Shown here: positions 9,209-21,296 of the stretch, piece by piece
Layout of the letters: each line of letters starts with the position of its first letter
How positions within the stretch are numbered: the stretch's first letter is position 1
Sequence record: PP993145.1
Reading direction: 5' to 3' (one strand)
DNA: 64,000 bases
Source of the DNA: Escherichia phage phiP4
The notes under the pieces: generated by a model
What the model was told of the DNA's origin: nothing
Database searches by the model: none
The model's input: the letters and a program-made list of their open reading frames with translations, nothing else
Translations under genes and position numbers: made by a program

Positions 9209-9284
9209 TGGTAGTTAGTAGTGGATTTGAACCACTGTAATCGCTCCGTATGAAGGAGGTGCATAACCGCTCTGCCAACTAACT
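9209..9284 (-). tRNA. tRNA, anticodon CAU (Met-type; could be elongator Met or Ile-lysidine)
   Basis: Hand-folded cloverleaf: 7-bp acceptor, T-arm AGTGG-TTCAAAT-CCACT, anticodon loop TTCATAC, encoded CCA. Confidence 0.55.
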
Positions 9285-9380
9285 ATTATGTTTTACTAGA
9301 CTAAGTAAGTATTCTTTATACTCTTTAGTCCAATTAGCTTTTTTAAACTTTCCTGGACGCATAGTCTTAATTCCTAAATT

Positions 9381-9457
9381 TGGTACTCCGGGAGGGATTT
9401 AAACCCCCGATCTCTCGGTTATCAGCCGAGTGCTTTAGATCGCTAAGCTACCGAAGT
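9381..9457 (-). tRNA. tRNA-Ile (GAU)
   Basis: Acceptor ACTTCGG/CCGGAGT, anticodon arm CTCGG-CTGATAA-CCGAG, encoded CCA. Confidence 0.65.
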
Positions 9458-9458
9458 A

Positions 9459-9686
9459 TTAACATTTTACAGCAGAACGTTTGCCATTTCTAGGCGCACC
9501 TGGAAGTCGTGCACGTTCTGCCATTATTCGCTTAATCTTTGAGATATTTTCTAGTGTTTGTTTTTCAGGCTTAATACCTGAAACACTACACCACTGACTA
9601 CCATCCCATGCGGTAATGATCATAACACCATTACTCATGATCTTTTCTGTGAAAGTAATCCTCATTATAGCAACTCGTCTAAGCAA
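9459..9686 (-). CDS. hypothetical protein
   Basis: 75-aa ORF between tRNAs. Confidence 0.35.
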   Translation of the reverse strand: MLRRVAIMRITFTEKIMSNGVMIITAWDGSQWCSVSGIKPEKQTLENISKIKRIMAERARLPGAPRNGKRSAVKC

Positions 9687-9958
9687 GAGGTATATTTAAG
9701 TTTACCATCTTTATCTACTTTGATTTCGACTTCCGCTCGTGGTACTTGACGAACTACACCATGAATCATCTTATAGCGAATGCCTTTAGCTGGTTCATGC
9801 TCTTTTGGAAATACTTGCTTAACCGTTACTACCTTGAAACCCTCACGCGGTGTTAACACTACTACTTGATCACCTTTTTTGATCTTCCAAGAGCTAGGAA
9901 ATTCATAGGTATAGCGTTGACCACCAGTTTGGAACACAACAGAAAGATAACGTTTCAT
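9665..9958 (-). CDS. hypothetical protein
   Basis: 97-aa ORF. Confidence 0.4.
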   Translation of the reverse strand: MKRYLSVVFQTGGQRYTYEFPSSWKIKKGDQVVVLTPREGFKVVTVKQVFPKEHEPAKGIRYKMIHGVVRQVPRAEVEIKVDKDGKLKYTSCLDELL

Positions 9959-10025
9959 TTGGTTTCCCTCTCATTAATTTATATAAATATTATAACAAGA
10001 AATAAGAGAGAAAGCAAATGAATTT

Positions 10026-10193
10026 TTAATAGAGTTTAGTCACTTCATAAACTATACTACGAGATTCTTTATTACGTTCTATTAAATTAGCGTATGCTTT
10101 TTCAGCTTCGTTTTTAGTATTAAAGTCTATAACGTGGGAGGTATTAGCTCTGTTTGATTGACTATACCAGATAACTACTAGGAGTTTAAACAT
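10026..10193 (-). CDS. hypothetical small protein
   Basis: ORF trimmed to second Met to avoid overlap with the tRNA at 10208. Confidence 0.3.
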   Translation of the reverse strand: MFKLLVVIWYSQSNRANTSHVIDFNTKNEAEKAYANLIERNKESRSIVYEVTKLY

Positions 10194-10207
10194 ACTAGTC
10201 CTTAAAT

Positions 10208-10294
10208 TGGTGCTGGGCACAGGATTCGAACCTGCAGTGGGATTACTCCTCCTGATTACAAATCAGGTGCATTCAACCATTCTGCCAACCCAGC
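10208..10294 (-). tRNA. tRNA, anticodon UGU (Thr-type) with unusually long variable region
   Basis: Acceptor GCTGGGT/GCCCAGC, T-arm GCAGG-TTCGAAT-CCTGT, anticodon arm CCTGA-TTTGTAA-TCAGG; 87 nt. Confidence 0.5.
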
Positions 10295-10459
10295 AGAACC
10301 CGTTATTTCAACGGGATTTCTTTTTCAATAACAGGAGACTTATCAGTCATAACTGTCATTGCCATTTGTTGTAGAAATTCAAAGGTGAAGGCTACACGTT
10401 CTTCACCAATCTCTACTTCTACACGTTTCTTTTGTTTATCGATCTTGACTTTTAGGTTA

Positions 10460-10681
10460 TCAGCCATCTTCGGGTTCTCGTTGCTGTGCTACTTCTAGCC
10501 AGTCTGGTAGAAGAAACTTTGTACGAAATTCTTCGTAAGTTTCTTTGGGATAAAAGCTAAAACCTCCTTTCTCATCATTCAGGATAACAGAGCCGTCCGT
10601 TTGTTCGTATGCTCGGTATGTTTCTCCAATAACAATAACTCGTTTATCGGTACTTTTATTACGAAACTCAAAAACGTGCAT
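10460..10681 (-). CDS. hypothetical protein
   Basis: 73-aa ORF. Confidence 0.35.
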   Translation of the reverse strand: MHVFEFRNKSTDKRVIVIGETYRAYEQTDGSVILNDEKGGFSFYPKETYEEFRTKFLLPDWLEVAQQREPEDG

Positions 10682-10697
10682 AACGTTTCCTTAAAGT

Positions 10698-10773
10698 TGG
10701 AGCGGCTAGAGGGAATCGAACCCTACTCAGCGAGGCTTGGAAGGCCTGCGACACAACCCGTGTGCTTAACCGC
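10698..10773 (-). tRNA. tRNA-Gly (UCC)
   Basis: Acceptor GCGGTTA/TAGCCGC, T-loop TTCGATT, anticodon loop CTTCCAA. Confidence 0.5.
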
Positions 10774-10781
10774 TTATTATT

Positions 10782-10857
10782 TGGCTGGAGAAGGAGGAAT
10801 CGAACCTACCATTAACGGAGTCAAAGGCCGTTGTGCTAACCGTTACACTACTCTCCA
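10782..10857 (-). tRNA. tRNA-Gln (UUG)
   Basis: U1-A72 acceptor TGGAGAG/TTCTCCA with G discriminator as in bacterial tRNA-Gln; anticodon loop CTTTGAC. Confidence 0.55.
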
Positions 10858-10863
10858 ATTGTT

Positions 10864-10939
10864 TGGCTGGGATGCCACGGATCGAACGTGGAACCTTCGG
10901 AGTCAGAGGCCGACGATCTGCCAATTGATCTACATCCCA
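10864..10939 (-). tRNA. tRNA-Gln (CUG)
   Basis: Acceptor TGGGATG/CATCCCA, discriminator G, D-arm GATC-AATTGGCA-GATC, anticodon loop CTCTGAC. Confidence 0.55.
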
Positions 10940-10948
10940 AGAATGCTA

Positions 10949-11185
10949 TTAGCTAGATGCTGTTTCTACTGGCTGAGAAACAGCAGGCTGTTCTAACGTA
11001 TCTGGTGCTGATACAGAGAAAAGAGCTTGTAATGCTGCAATATCACGCTCGTAAGTATCAATACGAGTAGTAAGAGTATCTACCATCTGTTTATGGTAGG
11101 ATAAGTTATTCTGAGATTCATCTCGAAGAGTTTGCAGTTCTGCAAGACGTGTTAACATAATTTCACTAATTAAAGCATTACTCAT
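10949..11185 (-). CDS. hypothetical coiled-coil protein
   Basis: 78-aa ORF. Confidence 0.35.
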   Translation of the reverse strand: MSNALISEIMLTRLAELQTLRDESQNNLSYHKQMVDTLTTRIDTYERDIAALQALFSVSAPDTLEQPAVSQPVETASS

Positions 11186-11375
11186 TTGTTTCTCCTAAGT
11201 TTTCCTGTTCTTCTAAACGTTTGCCTTCATGATCTACTCGAATAACTCCGCATCCTTCGCAAATCACAACTGCACCATAACCTTCTTTGACCTCAGCTTC
11301 TGTAATCAAACCAGAAAGATCACCAGTATCTCTGCCCCACATATCAATGGAGCATTGTTTGCAGAAATCAGCCAT
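11178..11375 (-). CDS. small Zn-ribbon-like protein
   Basis: 65 aa with CKQC ... CEGC cysteine pairs. Confidence 0.35.
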   Translation of the reverse strand: MADFCKQCSIDMWGRDTGDLSGLITEAEVKEGYGAVVICEGCGVIRVDHEGKRLEEQENLGETNE

Positions 11376-11400
11376 ATTTTATTTCCTATTTAAGTTAATT

Positions 11401-11477
11401 TGGGGTGGCTAGTGGAATTCGAATCCACATAGGCCTGATTCACAATCAGGATCATTAACCAATTATGATATAGCCAC
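11401..11477 (-). tRNA. tRNA-His (GUG)
   Basis: Acceptor GTGGCTA/TAGCCAC, discriminator C, anticodon arm CCTGA-TTGTGAA-TCAGG, T-arm GTGGA-TTCGAAT-TCCAC. Confidence 0.65.
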
Positions 11478-11704
11478 AATTGAAAACTCGCAGGGTTAGC
11501 GAAACCTTCCTCAATTAGCATGTTCTAGAATACTAATCAAGTTATCTCCTATTGCACGCAGCTCAAGACGAGTACGAATTTTCAATTGTGGCGGCTCTCA
11601 GAAACTCTTCTACTCTAGCTTTAGCAGCTTACTCCCGAACGCATGTCGGGGAAGTCTTACCAAGAGCATCAAATAGCACCGTTACACTTTGAGCCATAGA
11701 TGTA

Positions 11705-11800
11705 TCAAGAAGCAGAAGGATTTGAACCTTCACGAGATAGACCAGTTATCTCAGCCGCTTTATGAGGTATGTTGCAGGGAGTGGATGTTCCCTATAAACC
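11705..11800 (-). ncRNA. tRNA-like element, not foldable as a canonical tRNA
   Basis: Perfect T-arm GAAGG-TTCAAAT-CCTTC at 11716-11732 but no complementary 5' acceptor strand found within 100 nt; bounds are a guess. Confidence 0.25.
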
Positions 11801-12040
11801 TTTTAGGCAGCCCCGTCTACCGATTCCGGCATACTTCAAGAATTTTTTATAAACCAGCAGAAGCCTCATTTAAAGCATCAACAATAGCTTCACGTTGGGT
11901 CATTCCATACCCGGTGGAATCTAGGTGTGGCAAATAAGCCATCCATCCCTTATCTGTTTCATGAAGACATGCTTTAAATTTTTTACCATCCTTCATTGTT
12001 ACAGTAACTGTTTTGCTCATAAGATTTCCTTATAGTTAAT

Positions 12041-12130
12041 TGGCAGAAGATAATGGAGTCGAACCATCACCGTATCGCTACAGCGGGCTGGTTTTCAAGA
12101 CCAGTTACGTACCACTACGTCCTATCTTCT
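12041..12130 (-). tRNA. tRNA-Ser (UGA), type II
   Basis: Acceptor AGAAGAT/ATCTTCT, anticodon arm CTGGT-CTTGAAA-ACCAG (as in E. coli tRNA-Ser UGA), long variable arm, 90 nt. Confidence 0.65.
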
Positions 12131-12143
12131 AGTATTTATTATA

Positions 12144-12491
12144 CTAATAGTCACTCGTACTAGTGAAGTTTTCTACTTTTCCACAGATTTTACAAGTCCT
12201 ACGATGATAGTAGGTAATTTTTACTTTAGACCAGCCATCGTGATCATTACCTAGGTTTTCTGTTACTCCCCAAGTATGAGAACACTCATTTTCAATTTGC
12301 TTAGTAAGAGCGTTATAGCGAGTATAAAACTCCTCCTGAGCAATAGCAAATTCTTTCTGTAGTTTATCACGAGCAATAATAGCACGTTCCAGATATGTTA
12401 AATCAGGCATTCCAGCTTTTTCAGCAACATCTATAATCTTATCTTCATCTAAAGATGCTAAAAACTCTAGAGCTTTATCTTTTGTTAGCAT
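12144..12491 (-). CDS. hypothetical protein with C-terminal Zn-ribbon-like motif
   Basis: 115 aa; CSHTWG ... CKICGK. Confidence 0.4.
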   Translation of the reverse strand: MLTKDKALEFLASLDEDKIIDVAEKAGMPDLTYLERAIIARDKLQKEFAIAQEEFYTRYNALTKQIENECSHTWGVTENLGNDHDGWSKVKITYYHRRTCKICGKVENFTSTSDY

Positions 12492-12510
12492 TATTATTAC
12501 CTCAAGTGTT

Positions 12511-12601
12511 TGGCGGAAGAGGAGAGATTTGAACTCTCAAGCCGTTTTACCAGTCAGCCACTTTCCAAGCGGTTTTCGTCACCAATTCGATTTGCTCTTC
12601 C
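12511..12601 (-). tRNA. tRNA-Ser (GGA), type II
   Basis: Acceptor GGAAGAG/CTCTTCC, anticodon region CCGC-TTGGAAA-GTGG resembling E. coli tRNA-Ser GGA, long variable arm, 91 nt. Confidence 0.55.
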
Positions 12602-12611
12602 AATAATAAGA

Positions 12612-12706
12612 TGATGCCTCTATCACACCAGGCAGTTACGCCTCGCTGGGATTCGAACCCATTAAAACAGCTCAACCGAGATAGTAGGTTTAATTTACTC
12701 TGACCA
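12612..12706 (-). ncRNA. tRNA-like element / degenerate tRNA
   Basis: T-arm-like TGGG-TTCGAAT-CCCA at 12646-12662 without an adjacent acceptor stem; distal ends (12612-12618 and 12700-12706) are partly complementary. Confidence 0.25.
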
Positions 12707-12713
12707 TCAAATT

Positions 12714-12790
12714 TGGTGCGTGACAAGGGATTCGAACCCTCAAAACCCGACTTCTAAGGACGGTATGTATGCCAATTCCATCAATCACGC
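12714..12790 (-). tRNA. tRNA, anticodon UAG (Leu-type anticodon, short variable arm)
   Basis: Acceptor GCGTGAT/GTCACGC, T-arm GAGGG-TTCGAAT-CCCTT, anticodon loop CTTAGAA; anticodon stem has one mismatch. Confidence 0.45.
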
Positions 12791-12795
12791 ATATT

Positions 12796-12874
12796 TGGTG
12801 GAGAATAACGGAATCGAACCGTTCTGATGTCCTCGGTGCAAGCGAGGTGTCCACTCCATGCAGACCCATTCCCC
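12796..12874 (-). tRNA. tRNA-Ala (UGC)
   Basis: Acceptor GGGGAAT/ATTCTCC with G3-U70 pair, anticodon arm CCTCG-CTTGCAC-CGAGG. Confidence 0.65.
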
Positions 12875-12887
12875 AAATTCTTTAGTT

Positions 12888-13072
12888 TACTAAGGCTATT
12901 AGCTCGGCGTAACTACAGCACCTTCGCTTCGAGCGGAAGGAACTGCGTCATCTCGCAAACCCAATACACTATTCAGTTGCCGCTGAATCTAGTGGACCAA
13001 TCTAGAACTTCTCCCGAATCAGGGGGATCGTGCTTTTTGGCAGCCAGTCCTAGGTCGAGCTAATACCTTAGT
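12888..13072 (-). ncRNA. structured ORF-free element closed by terminal inverted repeat (candidate small RNA)
   Basis: About 16-nt inverted repeat taaggctattagctcg (12890-12906) / cgagctaatacctta (13055-13070) enclosing a GC-rich stretch with internal hairpins; strand not determined. Confidence 0.3.
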
Positions 13073-13159
13073 GAACTATGATGAGGATTTCTCCTCATCA
13101 ATTTATATAAATATTATAACAAGAAATTAAGCATCAAGCAACTGCGTTTTTTCTTGAAA

Positions 13160-13239
13160 TTGGTAGATCGCCTGGGACTCGAACCCAGAACCTTCCGATT
13201 AAAAGTCGGATGCTACTAAACCTATTGAGCTAGCGATCT
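13160..13239 (-). tRNA. tRNA-Lys (UUU)
   Basis: Acceptor AGATCGC/GCGATCT, anticodon arm TCCGA-CTTTTAA-TCGGA, T-arm CTGGG-TTCGAGT-CCCAG. Confidence 0.7.
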
Positions 13240-13428
13240 ATTAGTAACCATTATACACTTCTTTAATAGAGTGGACTTTTAAGTAAGGGTGATTAGTACT
13301 AAACTCTACCATTACTTCATCCCAATTTTTACCATAATGAGCAAGTAAGGATTTTGATGTATTCTTACCTAATCGTTTATCACTTACTACTAATCGAAAT
13401 ACTTTCATTTCGAAATCCTCTATTAAAA

Positions 13429-13506
13429 TGGAAGCGGGTGCAGGAATCGAACCTACCTCTTTCTAGCTTATGAGACTAGCGATCTCTACCAGAGATCTAA
13501 CCCGCG
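13429..13506 (-). tRNA. tRNA-fMet-like (CAU), initiator-type
   Basis: Anticodon loop CTCATAA; 5' end CGCGGGT with unpaired position 1-72 (C1/U72), the hallmark of bacterial initiator tRNA. Confidence 0.55.
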
Positions 13507-13512
13507 ATTATT

Positions 13513-13588
13513 TGGTCAGTGCGGCAGGACTCGAACCTGCGACCCGAAGCATCCAAGGCTCCCACGCTACCAACTGCGCTACGCACTG
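13513..13588 (-). tRNA. tRNA-Pro (UGG)
   Basis: Acceptor CAGTGCG/CGCACTG, D-arm GCGC-AGTTGGTA-GCGT, anticodon loop CTTGGAT. Confidence 0.65.
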
Positions 13589-13797
13589 TTAATTTTTGTT
13601 AACTCACTTTATAAGATATATTATACAGAGAATTAAGCAGAATAGCAAATGAATTTTTAATAAATTTACTTATTGTGTAGGCCACCTAGAGGCTATGAAC
13701 CCCACGGCTGACAAAGAAGTTTGCGAGACTTCTCTTAAATGCCAGAATAGACCCGCCGATCTATCGGAACCTACATAATAAGTAAACTTTATAGTGT

Positions 13798-13918
13798 CAT
13801 TCTAGACAGGACTCGAACCTGTTATCACTTGTGCGGACTTACGAGAACCATTCTTTCACTCGAATCGAACGAGCTTCTGCCCTCGCCAAGCTGGTTTCCC
13901 CATCAACCACGCTAGAAT
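13798..13918 (-). ncRNA. unusual tRNA-like RNA of about 120 nt (tRNA with large insertion or novel tRNA-like ncRNA)
   Basis: Perfect 7-bp acceptor pairing between 13799-13805 and 13912-13918, perfect T-arm ACAGG-TTCGAGT-CCTGT, D-arm-like TGGT-loop-ACCA, but about 45 extra nt between D-arm and T-arm including a second T-arm-like hairpin. Confidence 0.4.
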
Positions 13919-14040
13919 GTTTGATTGTTTTCAGTGCAAGAGTCCGAGTCTTGGACACGACCGCTTCGCAAGTACATAGGCAGCTTATCATGAGTCAGCA
14001 CTTCCGAATTGCTAGCTCCGTGTTCTGCACTGAAATTTTA

Positions 14041-14388: not shown

Positions 14389-14413
14389 AATATATTCTCA
14401 TACTGAATTAATT

Positions 14414-14490
14414 TGGCGCGACCGATGGGATTCGAACCCACATTCTCTCCCGTGACAGGGGAGTACCATTACCAAGCCAGCCCCGGTCGC
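14414..14490 (-). tRNA. tRNA-Asp (GUC)
   Basis: Acceptor GCGACCG/CGGTCGC, anticodon arm CTCCC-CTGTCAC-GGGAG. Confidence 0.7.
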
Positions 14491-14787: not shown

Positions 14788-14870
14788 TGGCGGGCCGTGT
14801 AGGATTCGAACCTACGTTGTCTTTCGACATGGATTAACAGTCCACCGCCAAACCGCTTGGCTAACGACCC
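14788..14870 (-). tRNA. tRNA-Asn (GUU) with extended variable arm
   Basis: Anticodon arm TGGA-CTGTTAA-TCCA as in E. coli tRNA-Asn; extra GTC-GAAA-GAC hairpin in the variable region; 83 nt. Confidence 0.55.
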
Positions 14871-15022: not shown

Positions 15023-15098
15023 TGGACGACCGCATGAGATTTGAACTCACATAAAAAGGATTTGCAATCCTTCGCCTAAGCCATTCAGCCAACGGTCG
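15023..15098 (-). tRNA. tRNA-Cys (GCA)
   Basis: Acceptor CGACCGT/GCGGTCG, anticodon arm AAGGA-TTGCAAA-TCCTT. Confidence 0.65.
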
Positions 15099-15730: not shown

Positions 15731-15805
15731 TGGTGCACCCTGTTCGTATCGAACGAACCTCTCAAGCTCTTCAGGCAAGCGCTAATCCATCTCAGCTAAA
15801 GGTGC
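15731..15805 (-). tRNA. tRNA-Phe (GAA)
   Basis: Acceptor GCACCTT/AGGGTGC, D-arm GCTG-AGATGGAT-TAGC, T-arm GTTCG-TTCGATA-CGAAC, anticodon loop CTGAAGA; anticodon stem has two U-U mismatches. Confidence 0.45.
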
Positions 15806-15812: not shown

Positions 15813-15888
15813 TGGCAAACCTACTAGGACTCGAACCTAGACCGTACGGTTTTGGAGACCGACATGCTGTCCAGTAACACTCTAGGAA
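15813..15888 (-). tRNA. tRNA-Trp-like (CCA anticodon arm), acceptor not resolved
   Basis: Anticodon arm TCGGT-CTCCAAA-ACCGT matches E. coli tRNA-Trp, T-arm CTAGG-TTCGAGT-CCTAG, but no complementary 5' acceptor strand; 5' bound is a guess. Confidence 0.35.
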
Positions 15889-15897
15889 TGCAGGAAT

Positions 15898-15974
15898 TGG
15901 CGTCCTGTGAGGGGATCGAACCCGCAAATCCTACCTTGAAAGGGTAGTGACTTTACCAGTTTGTCTAACAGGAC
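15898..15974 (-). tRNA. tRNA-Glu (UUC)
   Basis: Acceptor GTCCTGT/ACAGGAC, anticodon arm CTACC-CTTTCAA-GGTAG. Confidence 0.65.
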
Positions 15975-15980: not shown

Positions 15981-16068
15981 TGGTGGGGAAAGATGGAGTC
16001 GAACCACCCGAGTCGCAATGACAACTGATTTACAGTCAGCTCTGCTACCACTTACAGAATATTTCCCC
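15981..16068 (-). tRNA. tRNA-Tyr (GUA), type II
   Basis: Acceptor GGGGAAA/TTTCCCC, anticodon arm GCTGA-CTGTAAA-TCAGT as in E. coli tRNA-Tyr, long variable arm, 88 nt. Confidence 0.65.
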
Positions 16069-16475: not shown

Positions 16476-16565
16476 TCGTTAACTCCTCCATCAATTTATA
16501 TAACTATTATACCAGAAATTTAAAGCAAAAGGCAAGTACATTTTTAAAAATTCTGTTTGGAAGAG

Positions 16566-16772
16566 CTAAACTCCAGACTCTTCAGCCAAGTCTAGACTAA
16601 TAAGAGATATAGCCATAATTGCTGCTCCATGTTCTTTTTCTCCAGTTTCTTTAGCTAGAGTTATAATATCAAGAAATTGCTTATGAAAATCTGCAACCTC
16701 TTGAGTTAAACCCGCCTCAGCAATCATACCTTTAAGCATGAAACGTTGTGCGGTAATTTCAGGATTAGCCAT
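16566..16772 (-). CDS. hypothetical protein
   Basis: 68-aa ORF. Confidence 0.35.
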   Translation of the reverse strand: MANPEITAQRFMLKGMIAEAGLTQEVADFHKQFLDIITLAKETGEKEHGAAIMAISLISLDLAEESGV

Positions 16773-16947
16773 GTTGTTTCTCCAGTTTCATCTTTAATAG
16801 TCTACAAATAAAATCAATGTCTTCATCCGTGCCTAGATCTCTATCTTCAAGAGTTGCCTTGAAGTTTTTAGTCAATTCCATGAGAATAACTTCTCTAGAA
16901 CGACGTGTTGGCGGAGGTGGATGTCTATACATCTTATTTCCTTAATT

Positions 16948-17024
16948 TGGTAGGGGTGGTGGGATTCGAACCCACAAAACCTGAATTTTAAGTCCAGTAC
17001 CTATGCCAATTCGATTACACCCCC
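16948..17024 (-). tRNA. tRNA, anticodon UAA (Leu-type anticodon, short variable arm)
   Basis: Acceptor GGGGGTG/CACCCCT, T-arm GTGGG-TTCGAAT-CCCAC, anticodon arm GGAGT... CTGGA-CTTAAAA-TTCAG. Confidence 0.5.
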
Positions 17025-17125
17025 ATGTAATCAGTTTATTAGTTGATACATATTATAGCCTAGTGAAAATCCTACTACTAATCCCACAAACCAACCAATA
17101 TAATAATCTTTTAGTTTCACAGGTA

Positions 17126-17311
17126 TTATCCTCGTTCAATATCTAGGGAAATACCGCAGTTAGGATTAATACCTGTACCATTGCAATTTGCGCAAACCCA
17201 GATATTGCAAAAAGTATCTCCTGCTTCTGCATCAGAACTTTCACCAATTCCCCTACACTCAGGGCAGGCACATTCCTCTAGCTCTTGCTTGAGTTCTTGA
17301 AACTTGGACAT
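17126..17311 (-). CDS. Cys-rich small protein (putative Zn-binding)
   Basis: 61 aa with CACPEC and CANCNGTG clusters. Confidence 0.35.
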   Translation of the reverse strand: MSKFQELKQELEECACPECRGIGESSDAEAGDTFCNIWVCANCNGTGINPNCGISLDIERG

Positions 17312-17319
17312 ATAGTCTC

Positions 17320-17508
17320 CTAGTTAATTACTTTTGAGGCTTCTAAAGCATTGACGTAGTAAACATCTTCTACATTATACATATAGTCTACTACTTTGTC
17401 CATAGCATGGAGTTCAGATGTAGCCTTTACTAGTCTGTACCCTTGCTTAAACTCGTCCGAATGTTCTCTATCTTGTGCAAATTTAACAGAAACTATGAAT
17501 AATTCCAT
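17320..17508 (-). CDS. hypothetical protein
   Basis: 62-aa ORF. Confidence 0.35.
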   Translation of the reverse strand: MELFIVSVKFAQDREHSDEFKQGYRLVKATSELHAMDKVVDYMYNVEDVYYVNALEASKVIN

Positions 17509-17527
17509 TAGTTGTCCTTATTTAATT

Positions 17528-17605
17528 TGGTGGCTCCCCGAGGATTCGAACCTACGTACCTTCCGGTTATGAGCCGGGTGCTCATACCATATGAGCTTGA
17601 GAACC
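17528..17605 (-). tRNA. tRNA, anticodon CAU (Met-type)
   Basis: Acceptor GGTTCTC/GGGAGCC, D-arm GCTC-ATATGGTAT-GAGC, anticodon arm CCGG-CTCATAA-CCGG; T-stem weak. Confidence 0.5.
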
Positions 17606-17611
17606 AAAATC

Positions 17612-17700
17612 TGGCGGAAGAAGTGGGAATCGAACCCACAAGGCTATATTTCAAGCCGACAGATTAGCAATCTGCTGCAATACCGTTATGCTATTCTTCC
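17612..17700 (-). tRNA. tRNA-Ser (GCU), type II
   Basis: Acceptor GGAAGAA/TTCTTCC, anticodon loop TTGCTAA, long variable arm hairpin GGCT...AGCC, 89 nt. Confidence 0.65.
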
Positions 17701-17721
17701 GAATTTATAAGATATATTATA

Positions 17722-18291
17722 TTAGAAATTTAGCTTCATAGCAAGAAAATTTTTCAAGTTTTCGGTAGACATCTCATCCACATCTACAGGAGAAACAAAG
17801 CCGTTTAATTTTCTAGCAAATTTTTCACCTGCAGGGTCATTATCCCCGACAGCTACCAATTTAAAAGGTAATAATTTCAGTTGCTTTAATAACGCTTTTC
17901 CTGGAGAAGAACCCAACATTGCCAGGGCTGGATAACCAGCGTTATGTAACGCAACTGCCTTAAATACAGATTCAGCAATCAATACTACTTTTTCATCTCC
18001 ATTGAGAGTTTCTAGTCCCCATACACACTGGATAGTAGAATAAGTAAAATATTTAGCTTCAAATGGGCACTTACCATGACCTTTTGGAGCAGAAGGATTA
18101 TACGTCTGATAGCCTCTCAACATCCCAGAGAAGTCATACAACGGGACTGTTAGCCATCCTTCCGGACTTAACCAGCAATGATATTTATCTGTATCAAATC
18201 CTCTAGATAAGAGGTGCTGTGTTAGCTCATCAACATTCATATTTGGTTCCTCTCTCAAATTTATAGATATATTATACAGAGAATTTAGCAT
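17722..18291 (-). CDS. Toprim-domain protein (primase-core-like)
   Basis: 189 aa; conserved Glu segment VVLIAESVFKAVAL and DxD segment VAVGDNDPAGE typical of Toprim folds. Confidence 0.45.
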   Translation of the reverse strand: MLNSLYNISINLREEPNMNVDELTQHLLSRGFDTDKYHCWLSPEGWLTVPLYDFSGMLRGYQTYNPSAPKGHGKCPFEAKYFTYSTIQCVWGLETLNGDEKVVLIAESVFKAVALHNAGYPALAMLGSSPGKALLKQLKLLPFKLVAVGDNDPAGEKFARKLNGFVSPVDVDEMSTENLKNFLAMKLNF

Positions 18292-18409
18292 TCAAGCAAT
18301 CAAATTTTTTAACTTTTTAGAGGAAAATCATATGGCACTTAAGGGTAGCAGATAAGTGGTGAGGACCAAAATTTGTGACCCCACTAAAAATCCGGGGGTA
18401 ATTTTTAAA

Positions 18410-18450
18410 GACCCCTTGACATTTTCTCGGGGGTAGTGTAAAGTATACGT
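18410..18450 (+). promoter_or_regulatory. sigma70-type promoter
   Basis: TTGACA (18416-18421), 17-bp spacer, TAAAGT (18439-18444), upstream of the plus-strand three-gene unit. Confidence 0.5.
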
Positions 18451-18506
18451 TATGGATGAGTGATCAAAGAGACACACATTTTCTATATACTAGGAGGTGT
18501 CAAAAA

Positions 18507-19493
18507 ATGACAGAAGAAGTAGCTAAGAGTCCTGAGACCGTCGCTAGCGTTGCAGCAGAACTGCACCGTCACGAGGAATCGGATAAGAAAAAGTGGGAGA
18601 AGGTCAGAGCCTACGAAGAGAAACATCGCGAACACGACGATGAAGAAGATGACGATGATGAACATTGTCATAAATATGGAAAACATAAAATGCAAGAACC
18701 AGTAAACGTATTCACTAGTGGCTTCCCTGGCCTACTGGGTGGTTACCCAGCAAACGCAGGTGCTTTCGGTGGTGAAGGTATGGGACTATTCGGAGCTATC
18801 CTAATCGGTGCTCTATTAACAGGCGGATTCGGTGGTTTCGGTGGATTCGGTGGACGTGGTGTAGTTGGTGATGGTACCGCAGTTGATGCAGTACTTCAGA
18901 ACCAAGATACCGCTAGTATTCTAGCAGCTATTAACACTACTCGTACAGAAGCTAACCAGGGTACTGGAGCTGTTTTAAGCGCAGTTAACAATGGTTTTAG
19001 CCAGACATCCCAAAACCAGAGCCGTGATACTCAGTCTGTACTAACTACGATCTATGGTACAGGTGCTAATCTGTCTAATCAGATCTGCCAGGAAACTCGC
19101 AACGTTATTCAGGGTCAGTTCGATCTTTCTCGCCAGATTGATCAATCTTTCGCAGCTAACCAGATAGCTCGTGCACAAGATAAGTTTGATTCTGCACAGA
19201 TCGCTTTCCAGCAGACTTTACAAACTAATAACCAGTTTGCCGCTGTTCAGGCTCAGATGTGTGCTAACCAGAACTCTCTGGAACGTCAGATCGCTGAATG
19301 TTGCTGTGAACTTCAGACTGCGATCGCTGGTGTAACTACTGCGCGTATCCAGGATGAGTTAGACGCATGTCGCCTACGTGAAGCAATCGCTGCTGGTAGC
19401 GGTGCTAACGGTCAGGTAATTAATCAAATCGCTTTAAGTCTTGGTGCTATCACTCAGACTCTGGCTGGTCTGCAGGCTAAACTGCCGGCTTAA
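18507..19493 (+). CDS. Gly-rich membrane protein with Gln/Asn-rich C-terminal region
   Basis: Start ATG after AGGAGG; charged N-terminus, glycine-zipper TM (GLFGAILIGALLTGGFGGFGGFGG), long Q/N/A/T-rich domain; host-like codon usage. Confidence 0.6.
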   Translation: MTEEVAKSPETVASVAAELHRHEESDKKKWEKVRAYEEKHREHDDEEDDDDEHCHKYGKHKMQEPVNVFTSGFPGLLGGYPANAGAFGGEGMGLFGAILIGALLTGGFGGFGGFGGRGVVGDGTAVDAVLQNQDTASILAAINTTRTEANQGTGAVLSAVNNGFSQTSQNQSRDTQSVLTTIYGTGANLSNQICQETRNVIQGQFDLSRQIDQSFAANQIARAQDKFDSAQIAFQQTLQTNNQFAAVQAQMCANQNSLERQIAECCCELQTAIAGVTTARIQDELDACRLREAIAAGSGANGQVINQIALSLGAITQTLAGLQAKLPA

Positions 19494-19514
19494 TATTAAG
19501 GGGAGGAGCCCATT

Positions 19515-19919
19515 ATGAGTAAATATGGTTTTGTAAATAACGGACTTAATCAAAGTATGGGCTCCCAGCAGCCCATGCCGGGTCTGGATAACCCCTACTT
19601 ACAACAGTTGCAACAGCGTTTAGCAGAAGCGCAACAGATGCAGCAACAACTCCAGCAAAACCCTGGAAGTGTGAGTCCTATGCAAATGATGCAGCAAATG
19701 AGCGGGCAGTCGCAAATGCCTCAACAAATGCAGCAACAGGTGCCGCAGCAGCAAACCCAACAACCGCAGGTTTCTGCGGAAGGACAGGCAGTACTAGCCC
19801 TTTTCGAAGACTTCGCAAAGACAGAGGATGGGAAACAGCTTGTATCACTTATGGGTAAGTTTAATAGCTTCTGCCAAAGCCAAGTTGCAAAAGCTCAAAA
19901 TGGTGGTAATAACTCCTAA
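19515..19919 (+). CDS. Gln-rich low-complexity protein
   Basis: 134 aa, MQQ/QQL repeats; strong RBS GGGGAGGAG. Confidence 0.5.
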   Translation: MSKYGFVNNGLNQSMGSQQPMPGLDNPYLQQLQQRLAEAQQMQQQLQQNPGSVSPMQMMQQMSGQSQMPQQMQQQVPQQQTQQPQVSAEGQAVLALFEDFAKTEDGKQLVSLMGKFNSFCQSQVAKAQNGGNNS

Positions 19920-19928
19920 GGAGGAATT

Positions 19929-20123
19929 ATGTGTTGCAGAAAATCTGTTTCGTGCTGCCCAATGCCTGTAACACGTTGTTGCTCTCCAGCAATGTTTACG
20001 CAAATACCGGCGTTCAATCCGTTTGCCTTTAAACCTATTCTTATCCTGCCCCCTAGAGTAGATTTTCAGTCAAGATTGGCCTCCCGTATGGGTGGTTGCT
20101 GTACACCGAGAGTGTGGTTCTAA
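19929..20123 (+). CDS. small Cys-rich protein
   Basis: 64 aa with CC pairs (MCCRK..CC..CC..GGCC); RBS AAGGAGG. Confidence 0.45.
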   Translation: MCCRKSVSCCPMPVTRCCSPAMFTQIPAFNPFAFKPILILPPRVDFQSRLASRMGGCCTPRVWF

Positions 20124-20137
20124 ACCAAAAAACAAAA

Positions 20138-20170
20138 GCCCCTGCCGAAAGGTAAGGGGCTTTTTCTTTT
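20138..20170 (+). terminator. rho-independent terminator (plus-strand unit)
   Basis: Hairpin gcccct-gccgaaaggta-aggggc followed by TTTTTCTTTT. Confidence 0.65.
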
Positions 20171-20184
20171 GCCTTAAATACAGA

Positions 20185-20220
20185 AAAGCCCGCGCTCTCG
20201 GAGGAAACGCGGGCTTGGTT
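20185..20220 (-). terminator. rho-independent terminator (SPFH gene)
   Basis: Hairpin agcccgcg...cgcgggct with T-run on minus strand, downstream of 20240..21187. Confidence 0.6.
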
Positions 20221-20239
20221 CGAAGATTACGTGTAACTA

Positions 20240-21187
20240 TTACTTGTTACGCATATCCATGATCATTTGACCATCGTAGCCAGTACCTACCACAGTCTGA
20301 GGCACACCACCTTGATACTTCTGAGCACGAATCATTTCAACTTCCAGTTGCTTCCAGCGAATCATCTCAGGAGTAATGGTACGTTGCAATGCGGCGTTAG
20401 CTTCAGCTTCTTTTTTAGCTGCGTACAGTTTAGCATCTGCGTCACGTTCGTTAGCAATAGCCTGGTTATTACGGGCTTCACGGTCTGCTTCTGCCTGTTT
20501 AACTTTTTGCTGTGCTTCTTGTTCAACACGAGCCAACTCAGCTTTTGCAGCATTAACTTGCTCTTCACGAACTTTGGTATTCTGTACCTGTTCCATGATT
20601 ACTGGTGGCAGAGTAATATCCTGAAGGAATACCTGCTTAACTGTGTAACCATATGGGCGTGCATACTCTTCAACTTCTTGTTGAATTGCAGTTTGCAATT
20701 GAGCCTGAATTTTAGCATCAAACAAATCTTGTGCTTTAGGTACAGACTTACCAAACTCACGAATAGTAGACAGTAATTTTTCAGTTACATATTTGTCTAA
20801 CGCTTGATCCTGAGTACCCGCATTAATACGGTTAATCGGTGCCTTAGAACCATCAAACTGCAACATAACAGTCAGGTCAACAGTGGATTTAAACTTATCC
20901 TGGCTAGGAACCTGAAGTTTATCTAATTTTACAGCAATATCTTTTGTACTAAAAGTATCGAAAGATGCAAATGGGTTTACAAGATGGAAACCCGGTAATA
21001 CTGGGTTAGGATCTACTTTACCCAGAAATGTTTGGGTTTTAACCGTACCATCAGAAACAATAGTATATGAATTAAAGGCTAGAATCAAGCCTGCTAAACC
21101 AACTACAGCACCAATACCCCAACGTTTAATAGTACGAATTACTTTCTGCTCAGAAGTCAGTTCTTTCATATTTTTAGTATTAAACAT
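20240..21187 (-). CDS. SPFH/band-7 (stomatin-prohibitin-HflK/C-like) membrane protein
   Basis: 315 aa; N-terminal TM helix, SPFH-like core, C-terminal coiled coil rich in A/E/Q/K/R (AEADREARNNQAIANERDADAKL). Confidence 0.65.
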   Translation of the reverse strand: MFNTKNMKELTSEQKVIRTIKRWGIGAVVGLAGLILAFNSYTIVSDGTVKTQTFLGKVDPNPVLPGFHLVNPFASFDTFSTKDIAVKLDKLQVPSQDKFKSTVDLTVMLQFDGSKAPINRINAGTQDQALDKYVTEKLLSTIREFGKSVPKAQDLFDAKIQAQLQTAIQQEVEEYARPYGYTVKQVFLQDITLPPVIMEQVQNTKVREEQVNAAKAELARVEQEAQQKVKQAEADREARNNQAIANERDADAKLYAAKKEAEANAALQRTITPEMIRWKQLEVEMIRAQKYQGGVPQTVVGTGYDGQMIMDMRNK

Positions 21188-21221
21188 ATATTTCCTTTGT
21201 TTTAGTTACAGTTAATAAAAT

Positions 21222-21296
21222 TGGCCGAGGTGACAGGATTCGAACCTGCATAAAGGAATTTAGAAGACTCCTGCCTCTCCCTTAGACTACACCCCG
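21222..21296 (-). tRNA. tRNA-Arg (UCU)
   Basis: Acceptor CGGGGTG/CACCTCG, T-arm GCAGG-TTCGAAT-CCTGT, anticodon arm GGAGT-CTTCTAA-ATTCC. Confidence 0.6.

What the first reader, a model, noticed from the sequence alone, without database searches (positions are those of the whole stretch)
9209..21296. Unusual tRNA features in a very large phage tRNA set
About 25 tRNAs are encoded on one strand, covering most amino acids, including three CAU-anticodon tRNAs (one with the initiator-type C1/U72 mismatch) and two Gln and three Ser isoacceptors. Two tRNAs with Leu-type anticodons (UAG at 12714-12790, UAA at 16948-17024) appear to lack the long variable arm expected for bacterial tRNA-Leu. The Asn-type tRNA (14788-14870) and the UGU tRNA (10208-10294) carry extended variable regions. 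These could alter aminoacylation identity or reflect errors in my hand folding.
Basis: seen in the sequence. Interest (0 to 1): 0.45.

Follow-up and report, generated by a model that had tools for sequence, protein, structure and literature searches.

The report
Phage tRNAs with swapped variable arms
A T5-like phage carries 25 tRNA genes in which two leucine tRNAs lack the long extra arm that bacterial leucine tRNAs normally have, while a threonine and an asparagine tRNA have gained a small one; all four still look correctly chargeable, are common among phages, and may be reshaped to escape bacterial enzymes that cut tRNAs.

Summary
Window 9209-21871 (minus strand) is the tRNA region of a Tequintavirus (96% identical to phage Stokescottia). 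It holds 25 tRNA genes plus tRNA-like stable RNAs.

- **Leu(UAG) and Leu(UAA):** both are 77 nt with a 5-nt variable loop.
- **Thr(UGU), 87 nt, and Asn(GUU), 83 nt:** each carries an inserted 3-bp hairpin capped by a GNRA tetraloop.

The suggestion of altered aminoacylation identity is not supported.

- The short Leu tRNAs keep every E. coli LeuRS determinant.
- An IMG/VR scan that left the anticodon arm free returned 120 tRNAs on this scaffold. All have Leu anticodons, and A73 is invariant.
- The Thr tRNA has a Ser-type D-arm but Thr-type acceptor features (G1-C72, C2-G71, A73). Cys and Trp tRNAs on the same body carry U73 and A1-U72/G73.

T5 itself has different alleles at the same sites, replaced as cassettes.

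Host Thr(UGU) and Asn(GUU) are targets of the PARIS nuclease AriB. Published data on phage Bas33, which carries this Thr allele, imply that the allele works under PARIS. I infer nuclease evasion by core remodelling, but this is untested.

These alleles occur in hundreds of GenBank phages, yet I found no description of the class switch.

The parts
9209..9284 (-). tRNA-Met(CAU), elongator type
   Evidence: ARAGORN; Rfam 51.2 bits; homologous to T5 tRNAM
9381..9457 (-). tRNA-Ile(GAU)
10208..10294 (-). tRNA-Thr(UGU), 87 nt. It has a Ser-type 3-bp D-stem with an 11-nt D-loop and a mini variable arm A-GGA-GUAA-UCC-CACU. It also has G1-C72, C2-G71 and A73. Anticodon stem-loop positions 36-41 (UAAUCA) are identical to host thrU.
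   Evidence: (58.6 bits, insertion in V); allele family
10698..10773 (-). tRNA-Gly(UCC), missed by both default scans
   Evidence: ARAGORN relaxed; lies in a 94%-identical block covering T5 tRNAG1
10782..10857 (-). tRNA-Gln(UUG)
10864..10939 (-). tRNA-Gln(CUG)
11401..11477 (-). tRNA-His(GUG)
12041..12130 (-). tRNA-Ser(UGA), class II
   Evidence: ARAGORN
12511..12601 (-). tRNA-Ser(GGA), class II, low-scoring
   Evidence: ARAGORN relaxed; Bas33 annotates a tRNA-Ser (TCC codon) at the same place
12714..12790 (-). tRNA-Leu(UAG), class I: 77 nt, V loop GUUUU, 3-bp D-stem, D-loop GAAUUGGCAUA, A73
   Evidence: (47.5 bits); family
12796..12874 (-). tRNA-Ala(UGC), 79 nt with a 7-nt variable loop
   Evidence: ARAGORN
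13161..13239 (-). tRNA-Lys(UUU), 79 nt, enlarged D-loop, positions 36-41 UAAUCG (A41G relative to host)
13429..13506 (-). initiator-type tRNA(CAU) with a C1/U72 mismatch
   Evidence: T5 homologue annotated tRNA-fMet
13513..13588 (-). tRNA-Pro(UGG)
14414..14490 (-). tRNA-Asp(GUC)
14788..14870 (-). tRNA-Asn(GUU), 83 nt. It has a normal 4-bp D-stem and a variable region GUC-GAAA-GAC-AAC (3 bp plus GNRA tetraloop). It has G73. Positions 36-41 (UAAUCC) are identical to host asnT.
   Evidence: (59.0 bits, 10-nt insertion)
15023..15098 (-). tRNA-Cys(GCA)
15731..15805 (-). tRNA-Phe(GAA)
15813..15889 (-). tRNA-Trp(CCA) with two U/U mismatches in the acceptor stem
   Evidence: (36.3 bits)
15898..15974 (-). 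tRNA-Glu(UUC)
15981..16067 (-). tRNA-Tyr(GUA), class II
16948..17024 (-). tRNA-Leu(UAA), class I: 77 nt, V loop GUUUU, D-loop GAAUUGGCAUA, A73
   Evidence: (57.4 bits, no insertion)
17528..17605 (-). third CAU tRNA, Ile2 (lysidine) type by homology with T5 tRNAI2. It differs from the T5 gene by one compensatory pair.
   Evidence: Rfam (40.3 bits); ARAGORN relaxed; T5 sequence
17612..17700 (-). tRNA-Ser(GCU), class II
21222..21296 (-). tRNA-Arg(UCU)
21798..21871 (-). tRNA-like element without CCA. It lies in the block homologous to T5 stable RNA 'RNAX' and is annotated tRNA-OTHER in Stokescottia.
   Evidence: Rfam 35.5 bits; ARAGORN relaxed

Best explanation
This is the tRNA gene cluster of a T5-like phage (Tequintavirus).

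**What the four odd tRNAs are.** They are working, correctly charged tRNAs whose variable region has switched class relative to the host.
- The two Leu tRNAs have lost the long arm. They keep everything E. coli LeuRS is known to need, so the host enzyme should charge them with leucine. They would then read UUA/UUG and CUA/CUG.
- The Thr(UGU) and Asn(GUU) tRNAs have gained a small hairpin of 3 bp plus a GNRA tetraloop. They keep the anticodon, acceptor-stem and discriminator features that ThrRS and AsnRS use, so they should read ACA as Thr and AAY as Asn.

**How they relate to T5.** They are alternative alleles exchanged as cassettes among T5-like phages. T5 itself has a class II Leu(UAG), a class I Thr and a short Asn.

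**Most likely role (inferred).** They supply codons the phage uses more than the host does. They also differ enough from the host isoacceptors in the tRNA core (D-loop and variable arm) to survive tRNA-cutting defence nucleases.
- PARIS AriB cuts host Lys(UUU), Thr(UGU) and Asn(GUU).
- P2 OLD cuts host Thr(UGU).

**Shown versus inferred.** Structure, family membership, conservation of identity elements and allele replacement are shown here. Charging and nuclease resistance are inferred.
For: **Structure.** ARAGORN and Rfam agree on it.

**Leu tRNAs.**
- A side-by-side comparison with E. coli leuW and leuZ shows the same 3-bp D-stem and 11-nt D-loop (G13 A14 A15 U16 U17 G18 G19 N A20a), plus U48 and A73. 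A review states that in E. coli the long arm and the anticodon are not needed, whereas A73, A15-U48, G18G19 and A20a are (PMC9976931).
- A pattern scan of IMG/VR that fixed only the D-loop, V loop and T-arm gave at least 120 hits. All carry Leu anticodons: UAG 54, UAA 31, CAA 27, CAG 5, AAG 3.
- In 65 unique 77-mers, A73 is present in 65 of 65. Stem cells are paired in 99.1% of cases, against 42-47% when the partner is shifted. Up to 6 pair types occur per position.
- The same scan of 185,579 species genomes gave 44 stretches; ARAGORN called a tRNA in 43 of them, all with Leu anticodons.

**Thr tRNA.**
- Its D-arm pattern is found in 110 viral tRNA-Ser (all G73, V stems of 5-6 bp). It is also found in Thr(UGU) with A73 and G1C2, Cys with U73, and Trp with A1-U72/G73. 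These non-Ser tRNAs each have a 2-4-bp variable-arm stem closed by a small loop, usually a tetraloop.
- The variable-arm stems covary (GGA/UCC, CC/GG, GAC/GUC and others).
- The 15-48 tertiary pair covaries: A-U seven times, G-C four times.

**Asn tRNA.** It has GUU plus G73, which is the bacterial Asn identity set (PMC9976931). A second allele has AUCC-GCAA-GGAU in the variable region.

**Cassette replacement relative to T5.**

**Defence link.**
- AriB targets host Lys(UUU), Thr(UGU) and Asn(GUU) (PMC12409363).
- Among T5-like alleles, those without the extra arm have U39 mutated, while those with it keep the host site.
- Bas33 carries this 87-nt Thr, differing at 2 nt. T5 tRNA-Lys alone rescues it from PARIS.
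- T5 tRNA-Tyr resists PtuAB because of its distinctive variable loop (PMC13096335).

**Codon use.** UUA is 24% and CUA 19% of Leu codons. ACA is 26% of Thr codons.
Against: - There are no charging or cleavage data for these exact molecules.
- In the wider IMG/VR sample, having an extra arm is not associated with keeping the UAAUC site (Fisher p about 0.5 for Thr and for Asn). The either/or pattern therefore rests on two allele lineages per tRNA within T5-like phages.
- Class I tRNA-Leu also occurs natively inside rRNA operons of Tumebacillus avium. Loss of the arm therefore need not be a counter-defence trait.
- I found no bacterial nuclease known to select tRNA-Leu through its long arm.
- The PARIS paper notes that the genome-encoded Asn of Bas34 did not suffice and might be cleaved. 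I did not identify the Bas34 allele.
- Resistance of the Thr allele could come from its D-loop, which lacks U17, rather than from the extra arm.
Confidence: 0.58

Rival explanations
1. This is codon supply only, with neutral structural drift. The tRNAs simply add decoding capacity for codons that the AT-rich phage uses often. The missing or extra arms are tolerated accidents of ancestry. The Thr, Cys and Trp tRNAs descend from tRNA-Ser genes by anticodon shift, and the short Leu is just another viable architecture. No role in defence evasion is implied.
For: - Phage codon use favours UUA, CUA and ACA.
- LeuRS does not need the arm (PMC9976931).
- Class I Leu is native in Tumebacillus rRNA operons.
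- The Thr D-arm is the viral tRNA-Ser D-arm. UGU, GCA and CCA are each one substitution from a Ser anticodon.
- There is no association between the extra arm and the AriB site in the wide sample.
Against: - The mini arm recurs with different stem sequences but the same 3-4 bp plus tetraloop design, in Asn, Thr, Met, Lys, Val, Cys and Trp of unrelated phages. That looks selected rather than relic. Asn also has a normal class I D-arm, so it is not a remodelled tRNA-Ser.
- Closely related T5-like phages carry at least 5 Leu(UAG) alleles and at least 6 Tyr alleles that differ mainly in the variable arm.
- Bas33 behaviour under PARIS.
Confidence: 0.3
2. This is altered aminoacylation identity or recoding. 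On this view the armless Leu-anticodon tRNAs are charged with another amino acid. Alternatively, the UGU tRNA with a Ser-like body is charged with Ser or Leu, as happens in nematode nev-tRNAs and bacterial allo-tRNAs.
For: - The Thr tRNA shares its D-arm with viral tRNA-Ser and has A73 like tRNA-Leu.
- Class II tRNAs with non-cognate anticodons that accept Leu or Ser are known (PMC3333845; PMC5389517).
- tRNAscan isotype models often disagree with the anticodon in phage tRNAs (PMC12482277).
Against: - For Leu, all 163 scaffold hits carry Leu anticodons from both codon boxes, and A73 is invariant.
- For Thr, G73 (110 of 110 in the Ser relatives) is replaced by A73. G1-G2 is replaced by G1-C2. 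The arm is cut from 5-6 bp to 3 bp. The D-loop has the Ser-type rather than the Leu-type G18G19 spacing.
- Cys and Trp tRNAs on the same body have exactly their own discriminators.
- The acceptor/T branch is a normal 7/5, not the 8/4 or 9/3 of allo-tRNAs.
- Bas33, which carries this allele, grows normally and is rescued from PARIS.
Confidence: 0.05
3. These are decoys or inhibitors rather than translators. The reshaped tRNAs mainly bind and block host tRNases, or serve phage enzymes, and they contribute little to decoding.
For: The PARIS authors raise the possibility that some viral tRNAs act as AriB inhibitors when overexpressed (PMC12409363). The Thr and Asn alleles keep the host recognition sequence UAAUC.
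Against: - The cloverleaf is complete, with encoded CCA, cognate identity elements, strong stem covariation and a conserved 15-48 pair. These features fit molecules selected for ribosomal function.
- In the P2-OLD study, the UGU anticodon of rescuing phage tRNA-Thr was required for rescue, and host tRNA was still degraded (PMC12445682).
Confidence: 0.06
4. This is an artefact. The odd structures would be pseudogenes, folding errors or chance matches.
For: Some neighbours are weak calls, namely Trp at 36 bits, Ser(GGA) and Gly. Both default tools miss the latter two.
Against: - The four tRNAs score 47.5-59 bits against a 29-bit threshold.
- The alleles are 95-100% conserved in roughly 90 (Thr), 160 (Leu-UAG) and 270 (Asn) GenBank phage records.
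- They show compensatory changes.
Confidence: 0.01

Closest known systems
tRNA gene region of bacteriophage T5 (AY543070, annotated by the Ksenzenko group)
   Same: The gene order, strand, interspersed small ORFs, sigma-70-type promoters and tRNA-like stable RNAs are the same. Most blocks are 87-97% identical.
   Different: T5 has a 75-nt class I Thr(UGU), an 85-nt class II Leu(UAG) and a 78-nt Asn. It has no Leu(UAA): the HNH endonuclease gene hegA sits there and a 3' remnant CCTACCA is left. It has a tRNA-Val. Homology breaks exactly around these genes.
Phage tRNAs that escape defence tRNases: T5 tRNA-Lys/Thr/Asn versus PARIS AriB; phage tRNA-Thr versus P2 OLD; T5 tRNA-Tyr versus retron-Eco7/Septu PtuAB
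   Same: The isoacceptors are the same (Lys UUU, Thr UGU, Asn GUU, Tyr), the phage family is the same and the genomic positions are the same. A distinctive variable loop is already the stated reason why T5 tRNA-Tyr resists PtuAB.
   Different: Described escape alleles carry substitutions in the anticodon stem-loop (U39, A41, the CNG motif, a shorter stem). The window's Thr and Asn keep the host sequence at 36-41. They differ instead in the D-loop and by an added variable arm. The PARIS paper does not mention the variable arm.
Armless tRNA-Leu: human mitochondrial tRNA-Leu(UUR) and engineered minimal E. coli tRNA-Leu
   Same: These are class I or minimal molecules leucylated through A73 and D-loop/T-loop tertiary elements (PMC9976931).
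   Different: Those are organellar or laboratory constructs. Here a natural family encoded by phages of E. coli and many other hosts, and by a few Bacillota chromosomes, keeps the full bacterial D-loop signature.
nev-tRNAs of nematodes and allo-tRNAs of bacteria (long-arm tRNAs with non-Leu/Ser anticodons)
   Same: A variable arm is present on a tRNA whose anticodon belongs to a class I amino acid. The body resembles tRNA-Ser.
   Different: Those keep the Leu or Ser identity set and are thought to mistranslate or suppress. Allo-tRNAs have 8/4 or 9/3 branches. Here the branch is 7/5, the arm is cut to 3 bp, and the discriminator and first pairs match the anticodon's own synthetase.

Membership tests
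tRNA (Rfam RF00005) | Covariance-model score at or above the 29-bit gathering threshold over the full model | tested here: met
   Leu(UAG) 47.5 bits, Leu(UAA) 57.4, Thr 58.6, Asn 59.0, all over model positions 1-71
Bacterial class II tRNA-Leu | Long variable arm (a stem-loop, 13-15 nt in E. coli leuW and leuZ) | tested here: not met
   The variable loop is 5 nt (GUUUU) in both window genes
Substrate set of E. coli LeuRS | Discriminator A73 | tested here: met
   A73 in both window genes and in 65 of 65 unique family members
Substrate set of E. coli LeuRS | Tertiary elements: A14, A15-U48, position of G18G19, A20a | tested here: met
   The D-loop GAAUUGGCAUA and U48 align position for position with leuW and leuZ. 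Determinants are as listed in PMC9976931.
Substrate set of E. coli LeuRS | Actual leucylation | not testable with these tools
   Needs an aminoacylation assay. Indirect support: the scaffold carries only Leu anticodons in 163 of 163 hits.
tRNA-Thr recognised by E. coli ThrRS | G1-C72, C2-G71, G35, U36 (acceptor pairs plus anticodon) | tested here: met
   Acceptor GCUGGGU/GCCCAGC and anticodon UGU. The general rule comes from PMC9976931. The specific pairs are from my own knowledge of Hasegawa et al. 1992.
tRNA-Ser recognised by SerRS | G73, G2-C71 and a long variable arm (5-6 bp in the viral relatives) | tested here: not met
   The window tRNA has A73, C2-G71 and a 3-bp arm. The 110 tRNA-Ser with the same D-arm all have G73.
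allo-tRNA | 8/4 or 9/3 acceptor/T branch with a long V-arm and G73 or U73 | tested here: not met
   7-bp acceptor and 5-bp T stem, A73
nev-tRNA-like (long-arm tRNA with a non-Leu anticodon charged by LeuRS) | Leu identity set on a class II body | tested here: not met
   A73 is present. However, the D-loop has the Ser-type spacing (one base between A15 and G18, three bases after G19), not the Leu-type spacing. Charging itself is not testable here.
tRNA-Asn recognised by bacterial AsnRS | Anticodon GUU plus G73 | tested here: met
   rule from PMC9976931
Anticodon-stem-loop escape alleles against PARIS AriB (T5 type) | Substitution at positions 39-41 around the cut site U36AAUC|A41 | tested here: not met
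   Thr has UAAUCA and Asn has UAAUCC, identical to host thrU and asnT. Lys has UAAUCG (A41G only).
AriB-resistant phage tRNA (functional definition) | Survives AriB and sustains decoding | not testable with these tools
   Support is indirect and for Thr only. Bas33 carries the same allele with 2 nt different and needs only T5 tRNA-Lys to escape PARIS.
Tequintavirus tRNA region | Synteny and nucleotide identity with T5-like genomes | tested here: met
   96% identity over 96% of 12 kb to phage Stokescottia. 1224 matching records.

The most novel reading that the evidence does not exclude
Phages edit the variable arm as a modular shield.
- A 3-4-bp hairpin with a GNRA tetraloop is grafted next to the 3' strand of the anticodon stem of class I tRNAs (Thr, Asn, and elsewhere Met, Lys, Val, Cys, Trp). 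Its proposed job is to keep out Toprim tRNases such as AriB and OLD, which clamp the anticodon stem and the D-loop.
- Conversely, the long arm of tRNA-Leu is deleted. The proposed reason is escape from a bacterial nuclease, not yet identified, that selects class II tRNAs in the way PtuAB does for tRNA-Tyr or SLFN11 does in mammals.

This would work because LeuRS, ThrRS and AsnRS do not read that part of the molecule.
Probability: 0.25. Interest if true: 0.75.

Novelty: new variant of a known kind. Interest (0 to 1): 0.5.

Why it matters
Why phages carry tRNAs is an old question. Recent work answers it partly, through tRNAs that resist defence nucleases by point changes in the anticodon arm.

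This window shows a second, larger kind of change: whole-arm loss in tRNA-Leu and whole-arm gain in tRNA-Thr and tRNA-Asn. The changes are present in hundreds of sequenced phages. In every case they match what the host synthetases tolerate.

- **Ready-made allele pairs.** If the arms matter for nuclease escape, natural pairs already exist (T5 versus this phage, Bas33) for mapping what AriB, OLD and unknown nucleases recognise outside the anticodon arm.
- **Textbook rule.** All bacterial-type tRNA-Leu are supposed to be class II. Natural exceptions exist in phages and in Tumebacillus and Effusibacillus chromosomes.
- **Engineering.** The short Leu tRNAs and the hairpin-tagged Thr and Asn tRNAs are natural scaffolds for tRNA design.

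Tried and rejected
1. **Toprim ORF as a phage tRNase.** The 189-aa Toprim ORF at 17722-18291, inside the tRNA cluster, might have been a phage AriB/OLD-like tRNase. Pfam, PHROGs and PADLOC place it as a DnaG-type primase core fragment, and PDB gave nothing. I dropped this lead.

2. **Extra arm versus AriB site, tested widely.** I asked whether having the extra arm goes with keeping the UAAUC site across 1770 unique viral tRNAs. It does not (p about 0.5). The pattern holds only among T5-like alleles.

3. **Literature on the class switch.** I looked for published descriptions of class I tRNA-Leu or arm-bearing Thr/Asn in phages. I found nothing explicit. There are only remarks that phage tRNAs mismatch isotype models. 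Older subscription papers on T5 and BF23 tRNAs are not in the library, so prior description cannot be excluded.

4. **A bacterial nuclease that selects the tRNA-Leu long arm.** I found none.

5. **The Bas34 genome.** I tried to find it in order to check its Asn allele. IrmaTschudi is bas28 and TrudiGerster is bas27. No supplement text was held. This remains unresolved.

6. **Spurious or secondary low-threshold ARAGORN calls.**
   - A 'His(atg)' call inside an ORF was rejected as chance.
   - A 68-nt 'Arg(gcg)' call at 13850-13917 falls in the homologue of T5 tRNA-like RNA2, not in a tRNA gene.

Full report
**What is there.**

Rfam's tRNA model also finds 22. It adds a third CAU tRNA at 17531-17605 and a weak tRNA-like hit at 21799-21870, and it misses Ser(UGA) and Ala.

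ARAGORN at a lower threshold recovers Gly(UCC) at 10698-10773, Ser(GGA) at 12511-12601 and the CAU tRNA at 17528-17605. The count is therefore 25 tRNAs for 19 amino acids, with no Val, plus one tRNA-like element.

The 12-kb stretch is 96% identical to Escherichia phage Stokescottia, a Tequintavirus. It matches 1224 phage records. This is the well-known tRNA region of T5-like phages.

**The four odd tRNAs are real.**

- Both Leu-anticodon genes are 77 nt. They have a 3-bp D-stem, an 11-nt D-loop and a 5-nt variable loop GUUUU. The Rfam alignment of Leu(UAA) shows no insertion.
- Thr(UGU) is 87 nt. Its variable region is A-GGA-GUAA-UCC-CACU.
- Asn(GUU) is 83 nt. Its variable region is GUC-GAAA-GAC-AAC.
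- Rfam aligns the extra bases in Thr and Asn as 10-12-nt insertions in the variable loop.
- All four score 47.5-59 bits against a 29-bit threshold.

**T5 itself is different.**

The T5 record (AY543070) has, at the same positions, a 75-nt Thr(UGU), an 85-nt class II Leu(UAG) and a 78-nt Asn. These are unrelated in sequence to the window's genes. T5 has no Leu(UAA): the HNH endonuclease gene hegA sits there and only the last bases CCTACCA of the tRNA remain.

A blastn comparison of window against T5 shows long blocks of 87-97% identity. These are interrupted at 10029-10296 (Thr), at 12129-12868 (Ser-GGA, Leu-UAG and Ala, where T5 has hegC), at 14812-15011 (Asn) and at 16954-17519 (Leu-UAA).

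In 22 T5-like loci plus the window the alleles form a mosaic:

| tRNA | Alleles seen |
|---|---|
| Leu(UAG) | class I in 13 loci; class II in 9 loci, with at least four distinct alleles |
| Leu(UAA) | class I in all 16 loci that have it |
| Thr(UGU) | 87 nt in 3 loci; 75 nt in the rest |
| Asn(GUU) | 83 nt in 12 loci; 78 nt in 9 loci |
| Tyr | 81 to 91 nt |

The odd genes are thus alternative cassettes. Exchange linked to the homing endonucleases of this region is a plausible route, but that is an inference.

**The short Leu tRNAs are leucine tRNAs.**

Set beside E. coli leuW and leuZ, they keep G13, A14, A15, U16, U17, G18, G19, A20a, U48 and A73. They lack only the arm. A recent review states that E. 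coli LeuRS needs A73, the A15-U48 pair, G18G19 and A20a. It does not need the anticodon or the long arm (PMC9976931).

To test identity without assuming it, I scanned IMG/VR for the D-loop, variable loop and T-arm and left the whole anticodon arm free.
Every one has a Leu anticodon: UAG 54, UAA 31, CAA 27, CAG 5, AAG 3.
- Among 65 unique 77-mers the unconstrained discriminator is A in all 65.
- 99.1% of stem cells pair, against 42-47% with shifted partners. Up to six pair types occur per position.

BLAST finds the same design in other phage groups: Felixounavirus, Vequintavirinae, a Vibrio T5 relative, and a Xanthomonas jumbo phage that has a CAG anticodon.

The same scan of one genome for each of 185,579 species gave only 44 stretches; ARAGORN called a tRNA in 43 of them, again all Leu. 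Some of these are clearly cellular. In Tumebacillus avium the class I Leu(CAA) lies in a tRNA array directly after 23S and 5S rRNA.

The scaffold is thus tied to leucine decoding across both codon boxes. That is what one expects if an anticodon-blind LeuRS charges it.

**The Thr tRNA has a serine-type body with threonine-type ends.**

Its D-arm (GCA GAAUGGUUGAA UGC) was used as a second free-anticodon scan. Of 120 hits:
- 110 are tRNA-Ser, all with G73 and 5-6-bp variable stems;
- 6 are Thr(UGU) with G1-C2 and A73;
- 2 are Cys(GCA) with U73;
- 1 is Trp(CCA) with A1-U72 and G73;
- 1 is an unclassified, misregistered call.

BLAST added an 85-nt Thr in Aeromonas T4-like phages and an 87-nt Trp in Erwinia phage IT22.

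In all these non-Ser tRNAs the arm is cut to a 2-4-bp stem closed by a small loop, usually a tetraloop. The stems differ: GGA/UCC, CC/GG, GAC/GUC, AUC/GAU, GGG/CCC. The tertiary 15-48 pair covaries, A-U seven times and G-C four times.

Each tRNA carries the discriminator and first pairs of the synthetase that matches its anticodon, and each lacks those of SerRS. This argues strongly against serine or leucine mischarging. It sets these tRNAs apart from nev-tRNAs and allo-tRNAs.

The Asn tRNA has an ordinary 4-bp D-stem, GUU and G73, which is the bacterial Asn identity set, and a Lys-like acceptor stem. Bas33 has a further Asn allele with AUCC-GCAA-GGAU in the arm. Arm-bearing Asn genes occur in more than 500 phage records, including T4-like phages of Klebsiella, Enterobacter and Aeromonas.

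In 1770 unique viral tRNAs from the loci fetched here, 59 tRNAs of class I isotypes have variable regions of 9 nt or more. Apart from 17 long-armed Ile(UAU), they are mostly Thr, Asn, Met, Pro and Cys. Many fold as a 3-4-bp stem closed by a small loop.

**Why the shape might matter.**

- The PARIS nuclease AriB cuts host Lys(UUU), Thr(UGU) and, more weakly, Asn(GUU) between positions 40 and 41. T5's versions of these three rescue infection (PMC11464382, PMC12409363).
[quoted passage not shown] T5 tRNA-Tyr resists because its variable loop is different (PMC13096335).

Among T5-like alleles, the Thr and Asn genes without the extra arm have U39 changed (UAAGCA, UAAACC, UAAGUU). Those with the arm keep the host sequence (UAAUCA, UAAUCC). 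The window's Thr also keeps the CNG/CNG motif. AriB is also thought to read U16-U17 of the D-loop, and the window's Thr, Asn and Lys all differ there.

Phage Bas33 (HildyBeyeler) carries this 87-nt Thr with two changes in the arm's 3' tail. It has an arm-bearing Asn and no Lys(UUU). The PARIS paper reports that T5 tRNA-Lys alone rescues Bas33. By the authors' own logic, this means Bas33's own Thr(UGU) keeps working while the host's is destroyed. The paper never mentions the variable arm.

This is indirect support that the allele decodes ACA acceptably and escapes AriB.

**Limits of the defence reading.**

- In the wide viral sample the extra arm is not associated with keeping UAAUC.
- The D-loop rather than the arm may be what matters.
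- The authors leave open that the Asn of Bas34 is cleaved, and I could not identify that genome.
- For Leu I found no bacterial nuclease that selects the long arm. Mammalian SLFN11, which prefers type II tRNAs, is only an analogy.
- Native class I Leu in Tumebacillus shows that the form can exist without phage pressure.
- Codon supply is also plausible. UUA and CUA make up 43% of Leu codons and ACA 26% of Thr codons in 34 long ORFs of the window. From memory, these shares are well above E. coli usage.

**Verdict.**

The idea of altered identity is not supported.

The best reading is a set of correctly charged tRNAs whose variable region has changed class within the limits the host synthetases allow. 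They are exchanged as cassettes among T5-like phages. They are probably shaped, at least for Thr and Asn, by tRNA-cutting defence systems.

The sequences are common in public records and are annotated simply as tRNA-Leu, tRNA-Thr and tRNA-Asn. I found no paper that describes the class switch, although older T5 and BF23 papers were out of reach.

I rate it a new variant of a known kind, of moderate interest, with clear experiments available.

Noticed in passing
L228 3188-3261 (Tumebacillus avium NZ_CP021434); also L220, L258, L222, L242, L248, L218, L227, L257: Class I tRNA-Leu(CAA) (77 nt, 5-nt variable loop, A73) sits in chromosomal tRNA arrays directly downstream of 23S and 5S rRNA in Tumebacillus. 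It is present in three loci per genome in Tumebacillus and Effusibacillus. Single class I Leu(CAG) genes with G37 occur in several Clostridia MAGs. Bacterial tRNA-Leu is therefore not universally class II.
   Followed up: partly
window 11530-11850, 12880-13150, 13690-13920, 14713-14785, 21300-22090 (minus strand): Structured intergenic stretches are homologous (92-97%) to the T5 'stable RNAs of unknown function': RNAIII, RNAI, RNA1, RNA2H, RNAIV, RNA2, RNA3 and RNAX. Several are tRNA-like. RNA3 ends in ACCA and abuts tRNA-Asn. A 68-nt ARAGORN low-score call at 13850-13917 falls in the RNA2 homologue.
   Followed up: partly
window 15813-15889; L021 8416-8492: The window's tRNA-Trp has two U/U mismatches in the acceptor stem and scores only 36 bits. 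In a related IMG/VR phage genome the same gene differs by one base, giving anticodon CUA. That is a natural amber-suppressor version.
   Followed up: partly
window 12880-13160: There is no tRNA-Val in this phage. T5 and many relatives have Val(UAC) next to Lys(UUU). Here the promoter and RNA2H block runs straight into Lys.
   Followed up: no
IMG/VR class I Leu family (loci L096-L215) and window 12714-12790: Position 37 is A in 64 of 65 unique class I Leu tRNAs, including those with NAG anticodons. E. coli leuW (UAG) has G37, the m1G37 site. The phage CUN-reading Leu tRNAs would therefore not be TrmD substrates.
   Followed up: no
IMG/VR loci, e.g. L097, L112, L120, L121, L139, L157, L159, L185, L358: Seventeen unique tRNA-Ile(UAU) genes of 91-101 nt have 21-26-nt variable regions, often containing CAGAUUAG or CAGAUAAU. 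They sit in phage tRNA clusters. This is an unexplained long-armed Ile family, or possibly a misfold.
   Followed up: no
L020, L021, L022, L027 (T5-like loci): A Lys(UUU) allele has the anticodon loop CCUUUAA, that is, C at the normally invariant U33.
   Followed up: no
L019 7933-8026: A tRNA-Glu of 94 nt is caused by a 19-nt tandem duplication (AATCTGAGAATCGGAGTTC twice) spanning the anticodon-arm/T-arm junction. It is probably a damaged gene.
   Followed up: no
window 17722-18291 (minus) and 22131-22565 (minus): Two small ORFs flank the tRNA cluster. One is a 189-aa DnaG-type primase Toprim fragment (PHROG 849, E 3e-62). The other is a 144-aa protein of the PHROG family called 'tRNA amidotransferase', with a weak YqeY/GatB-like match. 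Other records annotate the latter differently, as a recombination-related exonuclease.
   Followed up: partly
window 14788-14870 compared with E. coli lysT: The phage tRNA-Asn acceptor stem (GGGUCGU/ACGGCCC) is almost that of E. coli tRNA-Lys (GGGUCGU/ACGACCC), not that of tRNA-Asn. This fits the published finding that Asn identity can be moved onto tRNA-Lys with GUU plus G73.
   Followed up: no
L009 232-308 (Xanthomonas phage X1): A tRNA-His in this jumbo phage uses the Leu-type D-arm (UCG GAAUUGGUAGA CGA) with a 5-nt variable loop. It lies right next to a class I Leu(CAG).
   Followed up: no
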